Shown one piece after another: positions 2,303 to 28,673 of a stretch of DNA of 38,236 bases (the first letter of the stretch is position 1; each line of letters begins with the position of its first letter). The DNA is from a virus: the IMG/VR virus record IMGVR_UViG_3300029819_000014, positions 1 through 38,236 of that record, one strand, 5' to 3'. Both the position numbers and the translations under genes were made by a program. Below the pieces are notes generated by a model. The model ran no database searches, had not been told where the DNA came from, and saw nothing but the letters and a program-made list of their open reading frames with translations.

Positions 2303-3178
2303 ATGGATAAAGAGCAAAAATCGATAGAACGAATCAAGATGGCATCTGAAATGAGTTTGCATCATTACGGAAAGCCTCTTATCTGTACATATTCCGGTGG
2401 GAAAGATTCGGATGTAATACTTGAGTTATTTAAGAGATCCGGAATCCCGTTTGAGGTACATAACAGCCATACTACGGCAGATGCGCCACAGACAGTATAC
2501 CATATCAGAGAAGTATTAAAAAAATTGGAATTACAAGGAATTAAATGCGAAATCGAAATGCCGACATACAAAGGAAAACCAACAAGTATGTGGAGATTAA
2601 TCCCACAAAAACTTATGCCACCTACAAGAATGGTGAGATACTGCTGCTCTGTCTTGAAAGAGACGGGGTGCGCAAATAGATATATAGCAACGGGAGTAAG
2701 GTGGGATGAATCGACTCAAAGGGCGACAAGAACAGAATTTGAGAAAATTGGGCGTACAAAATCTGATAAAGAACTTTTTTCATCGTTGATGCTAATGAAT
2801 GATAATGACAAGCGGAGAAGAATGACGGAATTATGTATGCAAAAAAATAAGATGGTAGTAAATCCTATAATCGATTGGACGCATTCAGACATTTGGCAAT
2901 ACATCGAATCGGAATATATAGAAGTATGCGATTTGTACAAACGTGGATATGATCGTGTGGGATGCATAGGATGTCCGATGGCAGGTAAGAAGCGTTACAA
3001 AGAATTTACGGATTTTCCGGAATACAAGAAACTGTATATCCACGCATTTGACAGAATGTTAGAAGAACGTAAAAGACGAGGGAAAGAATGTAAATGGAAG
3101 ACTGGAGAGGAAGTGTTCCTTTGGTGGATGGAAGATGAAAACATTCCGGGACAAATGAGCATAGAGGACTTTTTATAG
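2303..3178 (+). CDS. Phosphoadenosine phosphosulfate (PAPS) reductase family / PP-loop ATPase protein
   Basis: 291 aa. SGGKDS PP-loop motif near the N-terminus; Cys-rich C-terminal part (CIGCP). Confidence 0.85.
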   Translation: MDKEQKSIERIKMASEMSLHHYGKPLICTYSGGKDSDVILELFKRSGIPFEVHNSHTTADAPQTVYHIREVLKKLELQGIKCEIEMPTYKGKPTSMWRLIPQKLMPPTRMVRYCCSVLKETGCANRYIATGVRWDESTQRATRTEFEKIGRTKSDKELFSSLMLMNDNDKRRRMTELCMQKNKMVVNPIIDWTHSDIWQYIESEYIEVCDLYKRGYDRVGCIGCPMAGKKRYKEFTDFPEYKKLYIHAFDRMLEERKRRGKECKWKTGEEVFLWWMEDENIPGQMSIEDFL

Positions 3179-22332: not shown

Positions 22333-22629
22333 TTGGGAATCGTAGCAAATATTGCGATCGCAGTAATTACACCTCTTTTGGGATATATTGTATGGCTGTT
22401 AAAAAATCAGAAAAAGGACAGAGATGCGAATAGCCAAGGAACGATGATGCTATTGCGGGTGCAACTTATCGAATACCATGACAAGTACATGAAATTGGGG
22501 GAAATCCCGTCATACGCTTACGAGAACTTCTGTGAAATGTACAATGCGTATCATGCACTCGGTGGGAATGGAATGGTAACAAAAATGAAACAGGAAATCG
22601 AAGAATTACATTTAAAAAAGAAAGGTTGA
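22333..22629 (+). CDS. N-terminally membrane-anchored protein of the lysis module
   Basis: AAGGAG lies 8 nt upstream of TTG 22333. One N-terminal TM segment (IVANIAIAVITPLLGYIVWLL). Overlaps the holin start. Confidence 0.6.
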   Translation: MGIVANIAIAVITPLLGYIVWLLKNQKKDRDANSQGTMMLLRVQLIEYHDKYMKLGEIPSYAYENFCEMYNAYHALGGNGMVTKMKQEIEELHLKKKG

Positions 22630-22865
22630 TGAATATGTTTAAAAATAGCGTATTAAAAACAAGTGTAGACACAAAGAGATGGTTAAAGGCTGCCGGAATC
22701 CGTGCGGTTAAAACGATGGCACAGGCTGGTATTGCTGGAATCGGCGCAGCAGCTGCAATGGGACAAGTAGACTGGAAATATGTATGCTCGGCAGCTGTGC
22801 TTGCAGGAGTAGTTAGTGTACTTACATCGGTAGCAGGTATCCCGGAGGTTTCAGAGGGCGAGTAA
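22626..22865 (+). CDS. Holin (phi LC3-family-like)
   Basis: 79 aa. Two hydrophobic segments (AGIAGIGAAAAMG; AAVLAGVVSVLTSVAGIPE) and a charged C-terminus. Lies upstream of the endolysin. Confidence 0.75.
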   Translation: MMNMFKNSVLKTSVDTKRWLKAAGIRAVKTMAQAGIAGIGAAAAMGQVDWKYVCSAAVLAGVVSVLTSVAGIPEVSEGE

Positions 22866-22902
22866 TCGTCCTCGCACATAAAATGAAAGAGAGGAAAAGA
22901 AC

Positions 22903-23421
22903 ATGGGAATGAAATTTAAACAAGCACTTGAAGAAATGAAGAAAGGAATCCCGATGAAACTGCCATCATGGGGAGGATATTGGTGCTGGGATGATGAGAA
23001 ACAGACGATTATCATGTACACGAAAGACAATCAGAGATTAGATATCCGAGAAACGCAACGAGTTGAATATACGTTGCAGAACATTCTCTCGGAGGAATGG
23101 ATTCCAGCAGACGGCAATAATTGTCCAATACTTGGAGGAGAACTAAAAATGTCTTTCGGAGTAGCATTAGAATTGCTGAAAAAAGGAGTAAAAGTAGCAC
23201 GTGAAGGCTGGAATGGAAAAGGGTTATTTGTAGTTTATCAGAAAGCATACCCACAGGGAATTCCATGTAATAAGCAAACGGCAGAGGTGTGGGGATTAAA
23301 AGAAGGGGATTTATTCAAATGTGAACCGTACTTACAAATCAATACAGTGGATGGATCGCACGCAATGTGGGCTCCGAGTATTAGAGATTGTTTGGCGAAC
23401 GACTGGGTAATTGTAGAGTAG
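22903..23421 (+). CDS. Tandem DUF2829 (Tad2-like) protein
   Basis: 172 aa. The C-terminal half MSFGVALELLKKGVKVAREGWNGKG...WAPSIRDCLANDWVIVE fits the DUF2829 pattern. The N-terminal half FKQALEEMKKGIPMKLPSWGGYW...ILSEEWIP is a second, degenerate copy. Confidence 0.7.
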   Translation: MGMKFKQALEEMKKGIPMKLPSWGGYWCWDDEKQTIIMYTKDNQRLDIRETQRVEYTLQNILSEEWIPADGNNCPILGGELKMSFGVALELLKKGVKVAREGWNGKGLFVVYQKAYPQGIPCNKQTAEVWGLKEGDLFKCEPYLQINTVDGSHAMWAPSIRDCLANDWVIVE

Positions 23422-23435
23422 AAAGGAGAATTACT

Positions 23436-24356
23436 ATGGGAAGAACATATAACGTACATGCAGGACATTGTCCACAGGGGCAAGGAGCAAGTGGAGCAGT
23501 CGGCATCTTGCAGGAATCTGCAGAAGATCGTGCAGTAAAAAACGAAGTAATCCGTCTGTTAAGAGCAGAAGGGCACACGGTATATGACTGCACGTGCGAC
23601 GAAAATACAACAAAGCAAGGATGCCTGAACAAAATCGTTGCAAAGTGCAACCAACACAGCGTGGATTTAGATATCAGCCTACATTTAAACAGTGGGCGAA
23701 ACGATTATGGCGGAGACGGAAGTACAGGTGGTGTCGAGGTATGGAACTACGATACTGGAACACAGGAAATCTCGGACAGAATCTGTGAAGCGATTGCAAC
23801 AGAGTTAGGAATCCACAACAGAAGGACGAAATACGACAAGGACTTATTTGTACTGGCAAATACAAAGTCAAAGGCGTTGTTAGTAGAGTGTTGCTTTGTT
23901 GATGATGCAGACGATGCGAAAGTGTGGGATGCAAAGCGCTGCGCAAAAGCAATCGTAAGGGGTATTTTAAATAAAGAAATTAGTGGAACAACAGGAGGTA
24001 GTACAGTGAGTACAGTAAGAAGAATTGGACCAGGGTCAGCACATCTTAACAGTGACTGCCCTATTTATGATGCAACATGGAAAAATGTCATTATCAATGC
24101 CAAGCAAGGAGATCACATTACCGTACTTGATTCGGGTACAGAAGGTGTAAAAGTAAGACACAACAGCACAGTGGGATACATGCATTGCAAATATGTCATG
24201 CCGGACATCAAAAAAGGCGACAAGTTACGTGCGGTTGAGGACATAACGGTCACAATCAAAAAGGGGACTCAATTAGTATCTCAGGACGGCGGTTACATGG
24301 GCAATATCGTAAACGGCAACTTTATTATCAATTCAAAATCAGTCGAGAAAATCTAA
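23436..24356 (+). CDS. Endolysin: N-acetylmuramoyl-L-alanine amidase (Amidase_3-like) with C-terminal SH3-like wall-binding repeats
   Basis: AAGGAG lies 7 nt upstream of ATG 23436. N-terminal NVHAGHCPQGQGASG...ISLHLNSG...GVEVW pattern. Confidence 0.9.
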   Translation: MGRTYNVHAGHCPQGQGASGAVGILQESAEDRAVKNEVIRLLRAEGHTVYDCTCDENTTKQGCLNKIVAKCNQHSVDLDISLHLNSGRNDYGGDGSTGGVEVWNYDTGTQEISDRICEAIATELGIHNRRTKYDKDLFVLANTKSKALLVECCFVDDADDAKVWDAKRCAKAIVRGILNKEISGTTGGSTVSTVRRIGPGSAHLNSDCPIYDATWKNVIINAKQGDHITVLDSGTEGVKVRHNSTVGYMHCKYVMPDIKKGDKLRAVEDITVTIKKGTQLVSQDGGYMGNIVNGNFIINSKSVEKI

Positions 24357-24394: not shown

Positions 24395-24718
24395 TCAAAT
24401 ATCTGATCTATGCTTTTCACGAGATTGCTTGATCCTCAAAGCGTTTACAGACATATTCTCGTTATACACAGGCCTCTGCCTTGGGAGATACGCCTGTACT
24501 GTTTTTGGACTCAAGCTCATTTCTTTTGCTATTTCATCCGCATTTTTTCCCGCCTTGAATTTATTTAATATCTCGGCGTGCGTCTCGGACAATATGTATC
24601 CGTTGCTAGATAGAGCTTTTACAACGCGATTCCAAGAATATCCAGTATCTTTCGCAGTACCTTTTACGGACTGCAGTATTTTATATGATTCTAAAATTTT
24701 CTCCTCTGATTTCTCCAT
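24395..24718 (-). CDS. HTH DNA-binding protein (sigma-r4/resolvase-HTH-like)
   Basis: 107 aa. NADEIAKEMSLSPKTVQAYL helix-turn-helix. Last gene of the reverse-strand operon. Confidence 0.65.
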   Translation of the reverse strand: MEKSEEKILESYKILQSVKGTAKDTGYSWNRVVKALSSNGYILSETHAEILNKFKAGKNADEIAKEMSLSPKTVQAYLPRQRPVYNENMSVNALRIKQSREKHRSDI

Positions 24719-24719
24719 G

Positions 24720-24908
24720 TTAGAGGCCTTCCTTTTCTATTTTGTATTGTATTAAGCTTAATAAATAGTCCGGGCATTTCCTAGCCCCCGACTTCCAATC
24801 CTGCACCGTGCGGTACGGGATTTCAAAATAGTCGCTGAACTGCTTCATGTTCATGCCGGAATTTTCTAATACTTCCCGGAATTTTTCGTTATTAATTGGA
24901 TTTTTCAT
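24720..24908 (-). CDS. Small HTH protein (62 aa)
   Basis: ATG 24908 is in frame with track ORF 24720..25028. MNMKQFSDYFEIPYRTVQDWKSGARKCPDYLL is a typical short HTH. Confidence 0.65.
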   Translation of the reverse strand: MKNPINNEKFREVLENSGMNMKQFSDYFEIPYRTVQDWKSGARKCPDYLLSLIQYKIEKEGL

Positions 24909-25242
24909 CTTTTTTCTTCCTTTCCTCTTTTCTCTTCTTTTCTTCCAGTTCCTCAACCGTGTATAAATGTGCAATGTGCGGTCTTCCACTTTCGTCCATC
25001 GCCCGGAACGCTGGATGTCCATTAACATCTGTCAAAACATCATTAATTTCATAGCACCAACCCCACGGAGATTCTGCCATTATATTTCCCATTTGATTTT
25101 TATACAGTTCCCACTCATTCGGGACAAGAACCGTCATTTCATCAGAGCATGTAGCGTGCACATGCTCTCCACCATAAGTATAAACTTTTCTTTTTTCTGC
25201 GGCTAAAACGCCGTAATTTTTATAAATTTTAATTTCCTGCAT
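24892..25242 (-). CDS. Hypothetical protein with Lys/Glu-rich tail
   Basis: 116 aa. RBS AAAGGAGA. No recognisable motif. Confidence 0.6.
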   Translation of the reverse strand: MQEIKIYKNYGVLAAEKRKVYTYGGEHVHATCSDEMTVLVPNEWELYKNQMGNIMAESPWGWCYEINDVLTDVNGHPAFRAMDESGRPHIAHLYTVEELEEKKRKEERKKKDEKSN

Positions 25243-25260
25243 AAGTATGTCTCCTTTCTT

Positions 25261-25749
25261 TTAATACCATTCTTCAAATTCTTTGGAATCCTTGAAATGA
25301 ATTAGACGTTCATATTCATCGTATTCTTTCCAGTATTCATATCCGTCAGAACCTTTGTGATGAATTTCATTGCCATATTCATCGTATTCTTTCCAATATT
25401 CATATCCACTAGAATCTTGGAAGTGAATTATATTACCGTTTTCATCGTATTCCTTTGATTCTTTGCAACCATTAGAATCCTCGAAAAGAATTTCATTGCC
25501 ATTTTCATCGTATTTTCTAAAAGATTCATATCCGTCAGAACCTTTATAATGTATAAGGTTACCGTTTTCGTCGTATTTTCTAAAAGATTCATACCCCCAA
25601 GAATTTTTATAATTAATCATATTACCATTTTCATCAAATTCCTGATGATGTTCGTATCCATAAGGAGTCTTGCAATGAATTTCATTGCCGTTTCCATCGT
25701 ATTCATGTAAGTATCCGAATAATTCTTCTTTTCTTATTTCATTGCTCAT
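25261..25749 (-). CDS. Stand-alone repeat protein: 7 x 21-aa YD/RHS-like (or MORN-variant/YwqK-like) beta-hairpin repeats
   Basis: ATG 25749 after AGAGGAAAG. Repeat unit YDENGNxIHxKxSxGYExxxE occurs seven times back to back, mirrored by a 63-bp DNA periodicity. Confidence 0.75.
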   Translation of the reverse strand: MSNEIRKEELFGYLHEYDGNGNEIHCKTPYGYEHHQEFDENGNMINYKNSWGYESFRKYDENGNLIHYKGSDGYESFRKYDENGNEILFEDSNGCKESKEYDENGNIIHFQDSSGYEYWKEYDEYGNEIHHKGSDGYEYWKEYDEYERLIHFKDSKEFEEWY

Positions 25750-25796
25750 ATTCTTTCCTCTTTCTCCCCGTAGCCAATAGGTCAGCATTAGATTTA

Positions 25797-25988
25797 TTAA
25801 CCGATGTGTCTCACTGTGATGTTTTGTTCGATCACATATTCTGTGTCGATTTTCTCTACTTTGATTACTGCGTAGTTTTTATAGTCGTTCTGATCTATTT
25901 TTAATTCCTTTCCGCTCTCGTCAAAAAGGTTGCTCGGTCTCATTTCTTCTAAAAAAGTTTCTTCCATGTATTTTTCTAAGTTCATCAT
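25797..25988 (-). CDS. Hypothetical protein (63 aa)
   Basis: ORF in operon context. No recognisable motif. Confidence 0.5.
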   Translation of the reverse strand: MMNLEKYMEETFLEEMRPSNLFDESGKELKIDQNDYKNYAVIKVEKIDTEYVIEQNITVRHIG

Positions 25989-26024
25989 TTTTCTTTACCT
26001 TACTGCTTTCAGTAGTTCCTTTCT

Positions 26025-26450
26025 TTATTTTGCGTAAACTTCTTTTCTGATTCTTTCGCACATTTTGTCAGTTCCGTATTTTACATTTAAAAACAACTCT
26101 TTGTAATACTCCTGATATGTTGTTTTGTTAATGTTTTTTAATGTATCAATTACGCATCCAGCGTTTGATTCGTTCATAATTCTGTTGTAACCGCTTTTTG
26201 CGGCTTCCCATGCTCCAACTTTCTCCGGGTGTGCGTTTTTGCAATCTGTAATAATTGCATCAAACTGTTCGTTCATTTTCTCTACAAGTTTTTTCGCAAA
26301 TGCGATTTGTTTTTCTGTTCCTGTCATTTCTGATGTTCCTTTCTTCGCTTCCTTCCATGCTTTTTTAAGTGCTTCGGAGATTCCGAATCCTACTTTCTTA
26401 ACAAGATCCCATGCTCTTTTCATAATGTTTGATAAGTTGTATTTTTTCAT
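26025..26450 (-). CDS. Hypothetical protein (141 aa)
   Basis: RBS AAAGGAGAG. First gene after the consensus-like promoter. Motifs MKRAWDLVKK and GTEKQIAFAKKL. Confidence 0.65.
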   Translation of the reverse strand: MKKYNLSNIMKRAWDLVKKVGFGISEALKKAWKEAKKGTSEMTGTEKQIAFAKKLVEKMNEQFDAIITDCKNAHPEKVGAWEAAKSGYNRIMNESNAGCVIDTLKNINKTTYQEYYKELFLNVKYGTDKMCERIRKEVYAK

Positions 26451-26721: not shown

Positions 26722-28149
26722 TTACGAGATGTAAAGAGTAAAAATCATCTTCCCGTTTTTCTTGTCATAGACAATGTCTTCCACTAAGCTGCGCATAAAA
26801 AACCCTTTTGTTTCGTAGTCGACAGTATCATCTCTGATAACATCGTAAACAGTGCGGACTTTATTCAGCACATCTTCTTTGGATGGAATAGCGACGGAAG
26901 TAGTGTTGGTATCAAGTGACATTAATTGCTGTTCCAAATCTACACGAACTGCTTTTAACCGCTTCTTATTTTCTTTATACTCTTCTAAAGTATCCACCTC
27001 GTTTTCGTATGCGAGTTTAATACGCTCCTCTCGTGTGGATAACTTCTTCAATTCCTCTTCCAAGTGTGCGCGCTTATCCGTTTGCTGCGGAGAATCAGGT
27101 GCATGGTACCGATATTCGAATTCCATTCCATCGAGTATCTTTTCAAAGTACTCGTAGACAGCAGCAGTTGCCTTAGAAGCACTCAAAGAACATGATTCTT
27201 TATGTAAGCCTTTAGAATATTTGTAACACTGGAATCCAGGAGAATGAGGGTTACCACCATTCCAAGCAAGTGTAGCACCACAGTAGCCACATTTAATCAG
27301 CCCGGACAGCCAATGCTTACAGGAAGAAACGTCTCTTCGGCGTGCCGGTTTAAAGTTTTTACGAATCTTTTCCATGCGTTTTTCAAATTGCTCTTTCGGT
27401 AAACGTGCTTCATGTGGTCCTATAAAAGAAATATCATTCCACTTTACAAGACCGTAATAAAAGGGATTTTCTAATATTCTCTTTACGGAGCGGGATTCGA
27501 AAGGATTCCCTCGTTGTGTTAAATATCCCATTTCGTTTAAGTTACGTGCGATCTTTGTACAATCTATGTTGTACTGGTCGAACTGTTCAAATATGTAGTC
27601 AACGATTTTATACTTTTCTTCATCGATCGTAAACGGAGCTCCATGACCTGCAGCTTGATACCCTAAAGGGGGCGCGGTCTGATAACCTTCTTTAAGTGCT
27701 TTTTCTGTCATGCCTCGCAAGACTTCGCCGGATAATCGGATGGAATAGTATTCATCCATCCACTCGATGATACGCTCGATCAGACTACCAAAAGGACCAT
27801 CTATGATTGGTTCAGAAATGCTTACAACGTCAACATTATGTTGCTTTCGCAGAAGAGATTTATAAACAATCGATTCCTCCTGATTACGTGCAAATCGACT
27901 AAACTTCCAAACAAGAATCAGATCCACCGGGTGTTCCTTTGATTTTGCCATACCAATCATTTTCTGAAATTCAGGGCGCTTGTCAGCTCTTCGACCGGAA
28001 ATACCGTGTTCAAAGAATGTATCCAAAATGATAATGTTGTTTTGCTTTGCGTAGTCCTTAAGAAGACGCTCTTGACTTTCAGGAGATAGTTCGTCTTGCT
28101 TCCCTGTTGACACACGAATGTATCCGTAAGCATATTTTAATTCTTCCAA
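26722..28149 (-). CDS. int: Large serine recombinase (phage integrase)
   Basis: 475 aa. YGYIRVSTGKQ catalytic-serine motif, recombinase domain, Cys zinc ribbon (CGYCGATL...C), C-terminal coiled coil. TTG start 8 nt after AAGGAG. Confidence 0.95.
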   Translation of the reverse strand: MEELKYAYGYIRVSTGKQDELSPESQERLLKDYAKQNNIIILDTFFEHGISGRRADKRPEFQKMIGMAKSKEHPVDLILVWKFSRFARNQEESIVYKSLLRKQHNVDVVSISEPIIDGPFGSLIERIIEWMDEYYSIRLSGEVLRGMTEKALKEGYQTAPPLGYQAAGHGAPFTIDEEKYKIVDYIFEQFDQYNIDCTKIARNLNEMGYLTQRGNPFESRSVKRILENPFYYGLVKWNDISFIGPHEARLPKEQFEKRMEKIRKNFKPARRRDVSSCKHWLSGLIKCGYCGATLAWNGGNPHSPGFQCYKYSKGLHKESCSLSASKATAAVYEYFEKILDGMEFEYRYHAPDSPQQTDKRAHLEEELKKLSTREERIKLAYENEVDTLEEYKENKKRLKAVRVDLEQQLMSLDTNTTSVAIPSKEDVLNKVRTVYDVIRDDTVDYETKGFFMRSLVEDIVYDKKNGKMIFTLYIS

Positions 28150-28322: not shown

Positions 28323-28673
28323 TTATATTAATTCAATATTTCTTATTAATTTTACAACAAAAGACATGAAAGCAAAACCATATAGAAAACCGGTTATAAT
28401 GCGTTTTAAGTTATTGGATTCATAATTTGTAAAGTACTGCACAGTACCATCAACGGCAAGTGGTAAAATCAATACAGCTATTTTAAAACTAAAAGTATAA
28501 AAAGGCATTACAATAAGAGCGATTAGATGCCCTAAGGCAATTCCGGTGCACCTAGCGCAAATGGGTAATTGATATCCTTTTATAAAAAAGCTGCGATTAG
28601 GCATTTGGTGACACCCACAGTATTTTTTGCACCATTCCATTGACTTTATCCAATAACGTTCTTTAGTTGTCAT
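28323..28673 (-). CDS. DUF2085-family membrane protein
   Basis: 116 aa. CGCHQMPNRSFFIKGYQLPICARCTGIALG is the DUF2085 signature. Multiple TM segments. Confidence 0.8.
   Translation of the reverse strand: MTTKERYWIKSMEWCKKYCGCHQMPNRSFFIKGYQLPICARCTGIALGHLIALIVMPFYTFSFKIAVLILPLAVDGTVQYFTNYESNNLKRIITGFLYGFAFMSFVVKLIRNIELI

What the first reader, a model, noticed from the sequence alone, without database searches (positions are those of the whole stretch)
22903..23421. Tandem DUF2829 (Tad2-like) fusion inserted between holin and endolysin
Seen: residues 83-172 (MSFGVALELLKKGVKVAREGWNGKG...WAPSIRDCLANDWVIVE) fit the DUF2829 pattern. Residues 1-70 (FKQALEEMKKGIPMKLPSWGGYW...ILSEEWIP) look like a second, diverged copy. 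Established: DUF2829 proteins include Tad2, a phage anti-Thoeris sponge that sequesters the gcADPR immune signal. Characterised Tad2 proteins are single-domain oligomers. Inference: this is an anti-defence moron with a duplicated-domain architecture. It could have two different ligand pockets and therefore a broader range of sequestered signals. The gene splits the lysis cassette, which is a typical moron position.
Basis: partly seen in the sequence, partly recalled or inferred. Interest (0 to 1): 0.62.

Follow-up and report, generated by a model that had tools for sequence, protein, structure and literature searches.

The report
Two-domain Tad2-like sponge gene cassette
A temperate gut phage carries, as an optional insert between its holin and endolysin genes, a small protein that joins a standard Tad2 domain (which mops up bacterial alarm nucleotides) to a stripped-down second Tad2-like domain; the fused form is common in gut prophages, and I found no test or description of it in the papers I read.

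Summary
ORF 22903..23421 (+, 172 aa) is real. Residues 83-172 are a canonical Tad2/DUF2829 domain (PF11195, 81.9 bits), 49% identical to MoTad2, and keep 8 of 10 SPO1 Tad2 ligand-contact residues.

Residues 1-72 fail the Pfam cut-off (14 bits). Profile-profile alignment (95.5%), a profile search of the PDB and a confident fold model (top 15 PDB matches all Tad2, TM 0.65-0.72) show a short-form Tad2 fold. It lacks helix alpha2 and two of the four main pocket residues.

The gene is a true insert. Near-identical phages have holin and endolysin adjacent; window 22881-23421 (RBS plus ORF) replaces 11 bp there. It has no promoter or terminator of its own. In sister phages the ligand-pocket core of the C-domain (residues 105-165) is swapped for another Tad2 subtype.

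The architecture is not unique. It is phrog_1048, with more than 2,200 protein clusters, mainly in Lachnospiraceae and other Clostridia prophages. This scan has flagged it before on other DNA. The N-type domain is its own module: it occurs alone and fused to Tad2, Acb4 or Sequestin.

Most likely function: an immune-nucleotide sponge (anti-Thoeris type). The ligand and the N-domain role are inferred. I class it as a new variant of a known kind, of moderate interest.

The parts
22881..23421 (+). Insert cassette (541 bp): ribosome-binding site plus the whole ORF, including its stop codon
   Evidence: Phages L175 and L228 are 91-98% identical in the flanks. Their homology stops at window 22880 and resumes at 23422, with 11 unrelated bases in between. 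Eighteen related phages have the endolysin 7-55 bp after the holin.
22890..22895 (+). Shine-Dalgarno-like AGAGGA, with a 7-nt spacer (22896-22902) before the ATG at 22903
   Evidence: Read directly from the sequence. No promoter-like or terminator-like site lies on the + strand between 22297 and 24702.
22903..23421 (+). ORF of 172 aa: two-domain Tad2-like protein (phrog_1048)
   Evidence: phrog_1048, E 1.4e-57, residues 2-172. AF2 model with mean pLDDT 89.6.
22903..23118 (+). N-domain (residues 1-72): short-form Tad2-like fold without helix alpha2. Conserved W23, G25, W27, Y56, T57
   Evidence: dN/dS 0.20.
23119..23148 (+). Linker (residues 73-82), with family consensus N-x-P-x-LGG; pLDDT about 85-88
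23149..23418 (+). C-domain (residues 83-172): canonical Tad2/DUF2829 domain. Pocket residues W103, N104, I146, T148, D150, W156, S159, D162
   Evidence: SPO1 contact residues are taken from 10.1101/2023.05.01.538930.
23217..23396 (+). Swappable core of the C-domain (residues 105-165), replaced by a different Tad2 subtype in sister phages
   Evidence: Window against L164/L165/L166: 87-99% DNA identity up to 23216, none detectable across 23217-23396, then 85% from 23397. P0027 is identical to the window protein up to GWNGK and diverges after it.
22626..22865 (+). Holin (context, upstream boundary of the slot)
   Evidence: PF16945 Phage_r1t_holin, E 2.7e-15; phrog_443 holin
23436..24356 (+). Endolysin, N-acetylmuramoyl-L-alanine amidase (context, downstream boundary of the slot)
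   Evidence: PF01520 Amidase_3, E 2.7e-20; phrog_435 endolysin, E 6.8e-56

Best explanation
The gene is an optional cargo cassette of a temperate gut siphophage. It has no promoter of its own, so it is probably read from the late transcript together with the holin and endolysin (inferred).

Its product is a two-module member of the Tad2 family of immune-signal sponges. The C-terminal canonical Tad2 domain most likely oligomerises as Tad2 does. It would then form inter-protomer pockets that bind and sequester a TIR-made ADP-ribose-derived alarm molecule (His-ADPR or 3'cADPR). It may also bind cyclic pyrimidine mononucleotides, as its closest characterised relative MoTad2 does. Sequestration keeps Thoeris-type (and perhaps Pycsar-type) effectors switched off.

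The N-terminal domain is a short-form Tad2-like module under purifying selection. It lacks part of the canonical pocket and the alpha2 dimer element. It is either a second binding module of altered specificity or a fixed scaffold that sets the oligomeric state.

Shown here: the fold and homology of both halves, conservation of the pocket residues in the C-half, the insertion polymorphism, the swap of the C-core between sister phages, and purifying selection on both halves.
Inferred, not shown: oligomerisation, ligand identity, in vivo anti-defence activity, late expression and the role of the N-domain.
For: - The C-half scores 81.9 bits against PF11195.
- It is 49% identical over its full length to MoTad2, the His-ADPR and cUMP sponge, and 32-38% identical to other active Tad2s (activities from Table S2 of 10.1101/2025.08.24.671296).
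- Foldseek's top 24 PDB hits for the whole model are all Tad2.
- Eight of the ten SPO1 Tad2 gcADPR-contact residues are identical: W25, N26, I63, T65, D67, W73, S76, D79 correspond to W103, N104, I146, T148, D150, W156, S159, D162. W103, N104 and W156 are invariant, and S159 and D162 at least 90% conserved, in 40 homologues.
- dN/dS is 0.10 for the C-half and 0.20 for the N-half.
- A gene-sized presence/absence polymorphism separates phages with 91-98% identical flanks.
- The slot holds alternative cargo: a DUF4406-like gene in L180.
- The pocket-forming core is swapped between sister phages. This is what one expects of a gene under arms-race selection.
- The N-type domain is also fused to the known sponge families Acb4 (P0267) and Sequestin PF21825.
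- Possible targets exist in the host clade: ThsB_TIR (PF08937) scores above its cut-off in 39 of 201 sampled genomes of the family of a host (Blautia luti) that carries a homologue.
Against: - No binding or phage assay exists for this protein or for any N-type domain. None of the 17 Tad2 homologues listed in Table S2 of 10.1101/2025.08.24.671296 contains an N-type domain (N-HMM at most 21 bits, against at least 84 in the catalogued family members).
- By my reading of Table S2, five of those 17 (Tad2_69, 75, 78, 80, 81) blocked none of the seven systems used.
- H71 and T78 of SPO1 Tad2 are not conserved; the window protein has A154 and R161.
- Expression only from a late lysis transcript is not obviously ideal for a sponge.
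- The oligomeric state of a tandem protein is unknown. Model pTM is only 0.65, so the arrangement of the two domains is uncertain.
- The ThsB_TIR hits are not shown to belong to complete Thoeris systems; many lie in proteins of about 1,000 aa.
Confidence: 0.7

Rival explanations
1. Only the C-domain binds ligand. The N-domain is a ligand-blind scaffold: a degenerate Tad2 copy that replaces one partner in the Tad2 assembly or tunes oligomerisation or solubility, so the protein has one specificity. This is a sub-variant of the best explanation. The confidence given is conditional on the protein being a sponge, and is not additive with the other rivals.
For: - The N-half lacks the N26 equivalent (G24) and the W73 equivalent, and lacks helix alpha2, which forms the V-shaped dimer and the second pocket in Tad2 (10.1101/2023.05.01.538930).
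- The same N-half (identical in P0027) is combined with different C-core subtypes, so it does not appear to co-adapt with the ligand-binding core.
- The N-half is acidic (pI 5.0).
Against: - The most conserved N-type residues (W23, G25, W27 in the beta1-beta2 loop; Y56, T57 at the start of alpha3) map onto the elements that line the pocket in Tad2.
- The N-type domain exists alone (67-84 aa: P0169, P0236, P0243, P0251, P0262) and is fused to Acb4 and Sequestin. That argues for a function of its own.
Confidence: 0.45
2. AcrIIA7-like anti-CRISPR. The Tad2-fold oligomer binds structured RNA (tracrRNA) in a basic groove and blocks Cas9 assembly.
For: - The C-half matches AcrIIA7 chains (9kzr E 8.4e-13; 8kbi E 3.5e-14).
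- Two of the three residues essential for RNA binding in pdAcrIIA7 (K58, K71) are present as K93 and K106 (alignment; PMC13133391).
Against: - The third essential residue, K66, is Glu here (E101).
- K93 and R101 of pdAcrIIA7 lie in an insertion that this protein lacks.
- The protein is acidic overall (pI 5.6; C-half 6.6).
- The closest relative is MoTad2, not AcrIIA7.
- The nucleotide pocket residues are fully kept.
Confidence: 0.06
3. A lysis accessory protein: a regulator or chaperone of the holin or endolysin, given its place inside the lysis cassette.
For: The gene sits between holin and endolysin here, in R. gnavus phage phiRg507T2_3 (gp19), and in L164-L167, L178, L179 and L183. It has no promoter of its own.
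Against: - Near-identical phages lyse without it; the site is empty in L175 and L228.
- Most family members sit elsewhere: between the minor head protein and the scaffold, or among early genes.
- Roughly 6-9 of 55 downstream neighbours carry endolysin-type domains.
- The protein has no signal peptide or transmembrane segment (read from the sequence).
Confidence: 0.03

Closest known systems
MoTad2 / ModTad2 (Myroides odoratus prophage Tad2; PDB 8V3E, 9EIB), sponge for His-ADPR (type II Thoeris) and cUMP/cCMP (Pycsar)
   Same: - The C-half is 49% identical over the whole domain (79.7 bits) and is the best sequence and fold match.
- The GWNGKG and W-x-PS-x-x-D-x-LA-x-DW motifs are shared.
- Both are encoded by prophages.
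   Different: - MoTad2 is an 88-aa single domain that forms a homotetramer. This protein carries an extra 72-aa short-form Tad2-like domain and a linker in front.
- The alpha2 region differs in sequence.
- The ligand was not tested here.
SPO1 Tad2 (gp34.65; PDB 8SME/8SMF/8SMG), founder of PF11195, sponge for 3'cADPR (type I Thoeris)
   Same: - Both halves have the same fold.
- Eight of its ten ligand-contact residues are conserved in the C-half.
   Different: - 38% identity.
- H71 and T78 are not conserved.
- SPO1 Tad2 is a single domain, whereas this protein has two.
- SPO1 Tad2 belongs to a lytic myophage; the gene here sits in the lysis cassette of a temperate phage.
Sponge fusion proteins: Acb4-Tad2 (Pasteurella phage Pm86) and Tad2-Sequestin (PF21825) (10.1101/2025.07.12.664507)
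   Same: - One polypeptide joins a Tad2 domain to a second small module.
- The N-type domain of this family is itself found fused to Acb4 (P0267) and PF21825.
   Different: - Here the partner is a second, degenerate Tad2-fold domain rather than an unrelated sponge fold.
- Pfam does not detect it, so a Pfam-based fusion search such as the one in that paper would likely miss it.
- No activity data exist for it.
HgmTad2 / AcrIIA7 (PDB 8KBI-8KBM, 9KZR)
   Same: A DUF2829 core with an added N-terminal domain. The C-half matches at E 1e-12 to 1e-14.
   Different: - The AcrIIA7 head domain is helical and unrelated to the Tad2 fold.
- K66 of the RNA groove is Glu here.
- It has a long alpha2 insertion that is absent here.

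Membership tests
Tad2 / DUF2829 (Pfam PF11195) | Sequence scores above the curated Pfam cut-off (25 bits) | tested here: met
   The C-half scores 81.9 bits over profile positions 1-73. The N-half alone scores 14.3 bits and does not meet the cut-off, although stand-alone N-type relatives P0236 and P0243 do (33.7 and 34.6 bits).
Tad2 / DUF2829 (Pfam PF11195) | Tad2 fold: N-terminal helix alpha1, antiparallel beta sheet, short helix alpha3 before the last strand | tested here: met
   Whole model: the top 24 PDB hits are all Tad2. N-half model: the top 15 are all Tad2, TM 0.65-0.72. The N-half lacks alpha2.
Tad2 / DUF2829 (Pfam PF11195) | Ligand-pocket residues of SPO1 Tad2 (W25, N26, W73, D79, plus S76, I63, T65, D67) | tested here: met
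   C-half: W103, N104, W156, D162, S159, I146, T148, D150. N-half: only W23, T57 (equivalent to S76) and N60 (equivalent to D79, changed to N) are kept. N26 is G24, and the W73 equivalent is absent, so the feature is not met for the N-half.
Tad2 / DUF2829 (Pfam PF11195) | Homotetramer with pockets at protomer interfaces | not testable with these tools
   Only monomer prediction was available. pTM was 0.65 and no coordinates were returned.
Tad2 / DUF2829 (Pfam PF11195) | Binds and sequesters a TIR-, CBASS- or Pycsar-derived nucleotide and rescues phage from that system | not testable with these tools
   This needs biochemistry and plaque assays. No tested homologue contains the N-type domain.
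Moron (phage accessory gene with its own transcription signals) | Gene-sized presence/absence polymorphism between related phages | tested here: met
   Window 22881-23421 corresponds to 11 bp in L175 and L228. Eighteen related phages have an empty site.
Moron (phage accessory gene with its own transcription signals) | Own promoter and terminator; atypical base composition | tested here: not met
   No promoter-like or terminator-like site flanks the gene on the + strand. GC is 0.41 against 0.394 for the genome.
AcrIIA7 (tracrRNA-binding anti-CRISPR) | Basic groove residues K58, K66 and K71, essential for RNA binding | tested here: inconclusive
   K93 and K106 are present; the K66 equivalent is E101 (alignment; PMC13133391). 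The protein's pI is 5.6.

The most novel reading that the evidence does not exclude
The N-type short-form domain is an independent sponge module with its own, still unknown ligand. Candidates are immune nucleotides that canonical Tad2 does not cover, such as type III CRISPR cyclic oligoadenylates or another TIR product. It would bind through an aromatic and basic site built from W23, W27, Y56, T57, K19, K41 and R49. The protein would then be a two-specificity sponge. Phages would retarget it by swapping the C-core cassette while keeping the N-module constant.
Probability: 0.25. Interest if true: 0.65.

Novelty: new variant of a known kind. Interest (0 to 1): 0.42.

Why it matters
Tad2 sponges are a main way in which phages silence nucleotide-signalling immunity (Thoeris, Pycsar, CBASS). 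The fused form with a short Tad2-like domain is very common in prophages of human-gut Lachnospiraceae, yet it is missing from the experimental panels I could read.

Three things here give concrete handles for experiments:
- The N-type domain is a separate, conserved module (953 clusters at 50% identity). It also occurs alone and fused to Acb4 and Sequestin, which makes it a candidate new sponge subfamily.
- Natural 'isogenic' phages exist with the cassette, with an empty site, with a DUF4406-like gene instead, or with a swapped pocket core. They offer a ready-made comparison for what the gene does.
- The swap boundaries at the conserved GWNGK and LA-x-DW motifs show how specificity may be exchanged by recombination.

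If the protein simply behaves like MoTad2, the finding is a routine annotation.

Tried and rejected
- PADLOC gave no hit, as expected for an anti-defence gene.
- Pfam on the N-half alone was below the cut-off, so homology had to be shown by profile and fold methods.
- My own C-domain HMM was too narrow to classify partners of the N-type domain: many came out as 'N-X'. The Pfam tally was used instead.
- Some 'stand-alone' N-type representatives are truncated tandem genes (P0131, P0139). The count of 33 of 149 is therefore an upper bound.
- MoTad2 pocket residues for His-ADPR and cUMP are given only in figures, not in the text I could read. Specificity could not be argued residue by residue.
- Searches of the papers for a described tandem Tad2 found none. 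Absence from these texts does not prove the form is undescribed.
- No multimer prediction or model coordinates were available, so the arrangement of the two domains and any N-C pseudo-dimer could not be examined.
- A compositional anomaly was looked for and not found.
- The idea that the N-half is a decaying remnant was rejected on dN/dS of 0.20 and the invariant residues.

Full report
**What is there**

The window is a complete 38,236-bp viral record with direct terminal repeats. It is a temperate siphophage. It has a large serine recombinase (26722..28149, minus strand), a CI-like repressor, a replication and recombination module, and a structural module that ends in a 613-aa fibre protein.

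ORF 22903..23421 (+, 172 aa) is real. It lies 37 bp after an r1t-type holin (PF16945) and 14 bp before an Amidase_3 endolysin. An AGAGGA ribosome-binding site precedes the ATG by a 7-nt spacer. No promoter-like or terminator-like site flanks the gene on the + strand, and its GC content is typical (0.41 against 0.394).

**C-terminal half (residues 83-172)**

- It is a canonical Tad2/DUF2829 domain: PF11195, 81.9 bits, full profile coverage.
- It matches solved Tad2 chains: ModTad2 E 5e-20, HgmTad2/AcrIIA7 about 1e-13, SPO1 Tad2 1e-11, SptTad2 7e-10.
- The AF2 model of the whole protein has mean pLDDT 89.6. Its top 24 PDB matches are Tad2 only, and its BFVD matches are Tad2-like proteins.
- Against the experimentally characterised set, it is closest to MoTad2 (49% identity, 79.7 bits). 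It is 32-38% identical to SPO1 Tad2, HgmTad2 and Tad2_68/70/71/76/82/83 (sequences and activities from Table S2 of 10.1101/2025.08.24.671296).
- The SPO1 Tad2 contact residues for 3'cADPR are W25, N26, I63, T65, D67, H71, W73, S76, T78 and D79 (10.1101/2023.05.01.538930). Eight of them are identical here: W103, N104, I146, T148, D150, W156, S159, D162. H71 corresponds to A154 and T78 to R161.
- W103, N104 and W156 are invariant, and S159 and D162 at least 90% conserved, across 40 homologues.

**N-terminal half (residues 1-72)**

Pfam alone does not call it: 14.3 bits, E 0.06. Other evidence shows that it is a diverged Tad2-like domain.

- Profile-profile alignment of the N-type profile against the C-type profile gives 95.5% probability, E 1.6e-8. 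The alignment runs end to end (N 3-70 against 83-172), with the gap falling on the alpha2 insertion.
- The N-profile's six best hits in the whole PDB are Tad2 chains.
- The N-half modelled alone has pLDDT 94.3 and pTM 0.82. Its top 15 PDB matches are all Tad2 (TM 0.65-0.72, prob 0.99-1.00), followed by a sharp drop to prob 0.16.
- Its secondary structure is alpha1, four short strands, alpha3 and a last strand. Helix alpha2 of Tad2 is missing. In Tad2, alpha2 builds the V-shaped dimer and, in HgmTad2 and MoTad2, the second pocket (10.1101/2023.05.01.538930; 10.1101/2025.08.24.671296).
- Of the pocket motif it keeps W23 (equivalent to W25), T57 (S76) and N60 (D79, changed to N). N26 is replaced by G24, and the W73 equivalent is absent.
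- It is not decaying. M3, F5, G15, W23, G25, W27 and T57 are invariant, and K13, K19, K41 and Y56 are nearly so. Median dN/dS is 0.20, against 0.10 for the C-half.

**The N-type domain is its own module**

- A profile of N-halves finds 953 clusters (50% identity) at E up to 1e-3, and 480 at E up to 1e-10.
- Among the best 149, 96 also carry a PF11195 domain. One carries Acb4 (PF13876; P0267) and one carries Sequestin (PF21825). A few carry dUTPase, DUF4406, DUF6275 or RyR domains.
- Up to 33 are of stand-alone length. Some of these are truncated tandem genes (P0131, P0139). P0169, P0236, P0243, P0251 and P0262 (67-84 aa) end at the domain's natural C-terminus.
- P0236 and P0243 pass the PF11195 cut-off. 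The N-type is therefore a short-form Tad2 subfamily at the edge of the Pfam model.
- The protein is thus better described as a fusion of two Tad2 subfamilies than as a fresh internal duplication.
- None of the 17 Tad2 homologues listed in Table S2 is of the N-type (N-HMM at most 21 bits, against at least 84 in the catalogued family members).

**How common the architecture is**

- The whole protein is phrog_1048 (E 1.4e-57, both halves covered).
- A protein search found 2,227 clusters (90% identity). The best 120 are 56-99% identical, and nearly all are 163-205 aa.
- 572 viral-contig loci and 451 loci in species-representative bacterial genomes encode relatives. Most of the listed hits are two-domain proteins. 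Among the named records, the hosts are mostly Lachnospiraceae and other Clostridia: Blautia, Dorea, Roseburia, Coprococcus, Hungatella, Eubacterium ramulus, Ruminococcus.
- Cultured examples are Ruminococcus gnavus phage phiRg507T2_3 gp19 and a Dorea phage DO134P1 protein.
- This scan has noted the same architecture several times on other DNA.

**It is an insert, and the slot is a cargo slot**

- Among phages with a related holin, 18 have the homologous endolysin 7-55 bp after the holin. Three carry the 172-aa gene in between.
- L175 and L228 are 91-98% identical to the window in the flanks. Homology ends at 22880 and resumes at 23422. The 541 bp of RBS plus ORF plus stop codon correspond to 11 unrelated bases there.
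- L180 has a 99-aa gene in the same slot. It gives a sub-threshold DUF4406 match (19.7 bits, E 2.4e-5, profile 2-90 of 91).
- Elsewhere the family sits in other places: between the minor head protein and the scaffold, or among early genes such as Ant, methyltransferase, RDF and deoxyribosyltransferase-like genes. Only about 6-9 of 55 downstream neighbours carry endolysin-type domains.

**Swap of the pocket core**

A prophage in a 3.1-Mb chromosome (L164) and three metagenome contigs share the window's fibre-holin-X-endolysin backbone.

- Where they align, DNA identity to the window is about 87-99% up to 23216. It is undetectable across 23217-23396 and is 85% from 23397.
- Their protein (P0027) is identical to the window's through ...AREGWNGK. 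It then carries a different Tad2 core of the WLASQ type.
- The replaced stretch encodes residues 105-165, which carry every pocket-contact residue except the GWNG loop (W103, N104).
- The boundaries coincide with the two most conserved motifs, so homologous recombination between divergent Tad2 genes is the simplest cause (inference).

**Mechanism**

From the family's established behaviour, single-domain Tad2 homotetramers sequester 3'cADPR, His-ADPR, N7-cADPR, cUMP/cCMP or cyclic dinucleotides in two kinds of inter-protomer pocket (10.1101/2023.05.01.538930; 10.1101/2024.01.03.573942; 10.1101/2025.08.24.671296).

The C-domain most likely does the same, with a MoTad2-like or SPO1-like ligand. 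TIR signalling may exist in the host clade: ThsB_TIR scores above its cut-off in 39 of 201 sampled genomes of the family of a host that carries a homologue. Complete Thoeris operons were not verified.

The N-domain is either a scaffold or a second module with a changed site. For a site of its own: its conserved residues map to the pocket-forming loop and to alpha3, and the domain occurs alone and fused to other sponges. Against: it lacks N26, W73 and alpha2, it is acidic, and it tolerates any C-core.

**Rivals**

- AcrIIA7-like tracrRNA binding. Two of the three essential lysines are kept, but K66 is Glu and the protein is acidic.
- A lysis role. This is contradicted by the empty-site phages and by the other genomic positions of the family.

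**Comparison with the literature**

Fusions of Tad2 with Acb4 and with Sequestin are published and active (10.1101/2025.07.12.664507). I found no description of a Tad2 domain fused to a short Tad2-like domain in the texts searched. Pfam does not annotate the N-domain, which would hide it from a Pfam-based fusion search.

**Verdict**

This is a common but experimentally untested two-module variant of a known anti-defence family, sitting in a demonstrably polymorphic cargo slot.

Noticed in passing
L100:3812-4276, L102:3806-4270, L126, L020-L022, L031-L034, L039: The same Tad2 core subtype as the window's C-half (70-80% identical) is fused in other prophages to a different N-terminal domain of about 65 aa. 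Its pattern is MKKYIGTK..A.PM.RG.YN.YRGW.IP..ENP.DEGYLV.Y.DGYESWSPK..FE..Y and it has no Pfam family. It is probably phrog_872. By the fusion logic used for Sequestin, it is another candidate sponge partner.
   Followed up: partly
L180:2772-3071: A sister phage carries a 99-aa gene in the same holin-endolysin slot instead of the Tad2-like gene. It gives a sub-threshold DUF4406 (PF14359) match: 19.7 bits, E 2.4e-5, full profile length. DUF4406 and deoxyribosyltransferase-like genes also appear as neighbours or fusion partners of this family.
   Followed up: partly
window 23659-23879: The endolysin is itself mosaic. This stretch has no detectable DNA homology to L164, L165 or L166, although both of its flanks do.
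   Followed up: no
window 24395-26450 (minus strand): A low-GC (0.36) accessory cluster lies between the endolysin and the integrase. It contains a GerE/LuxR-type HTH protein (24395..24718), several unknown ORFs, and a 175-aa protein made of repeated YDENGN.I.. units that hits RHS_repeat (25261..25788).
   Followed up: no
window 2303-3178: A PAPS-reductase-like gene (phrog_424, E 3e-43) lies upstream of the packaging genes. This type is often linked to DNA modification in phages.
   Followed up: no
window 28323-28673 (minus strand): A DUF2085 membrane protein is encoded next to the serine integrase. It is a possible lysogeny-expressed cargo gene.
   Followed up: no
P0121, P0189, P0210 (protein ids): Other combinations of the short-form domain exist: N-N tandems (P0189, P0210) and a three-domain protein (P0121).
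   Followed up: no
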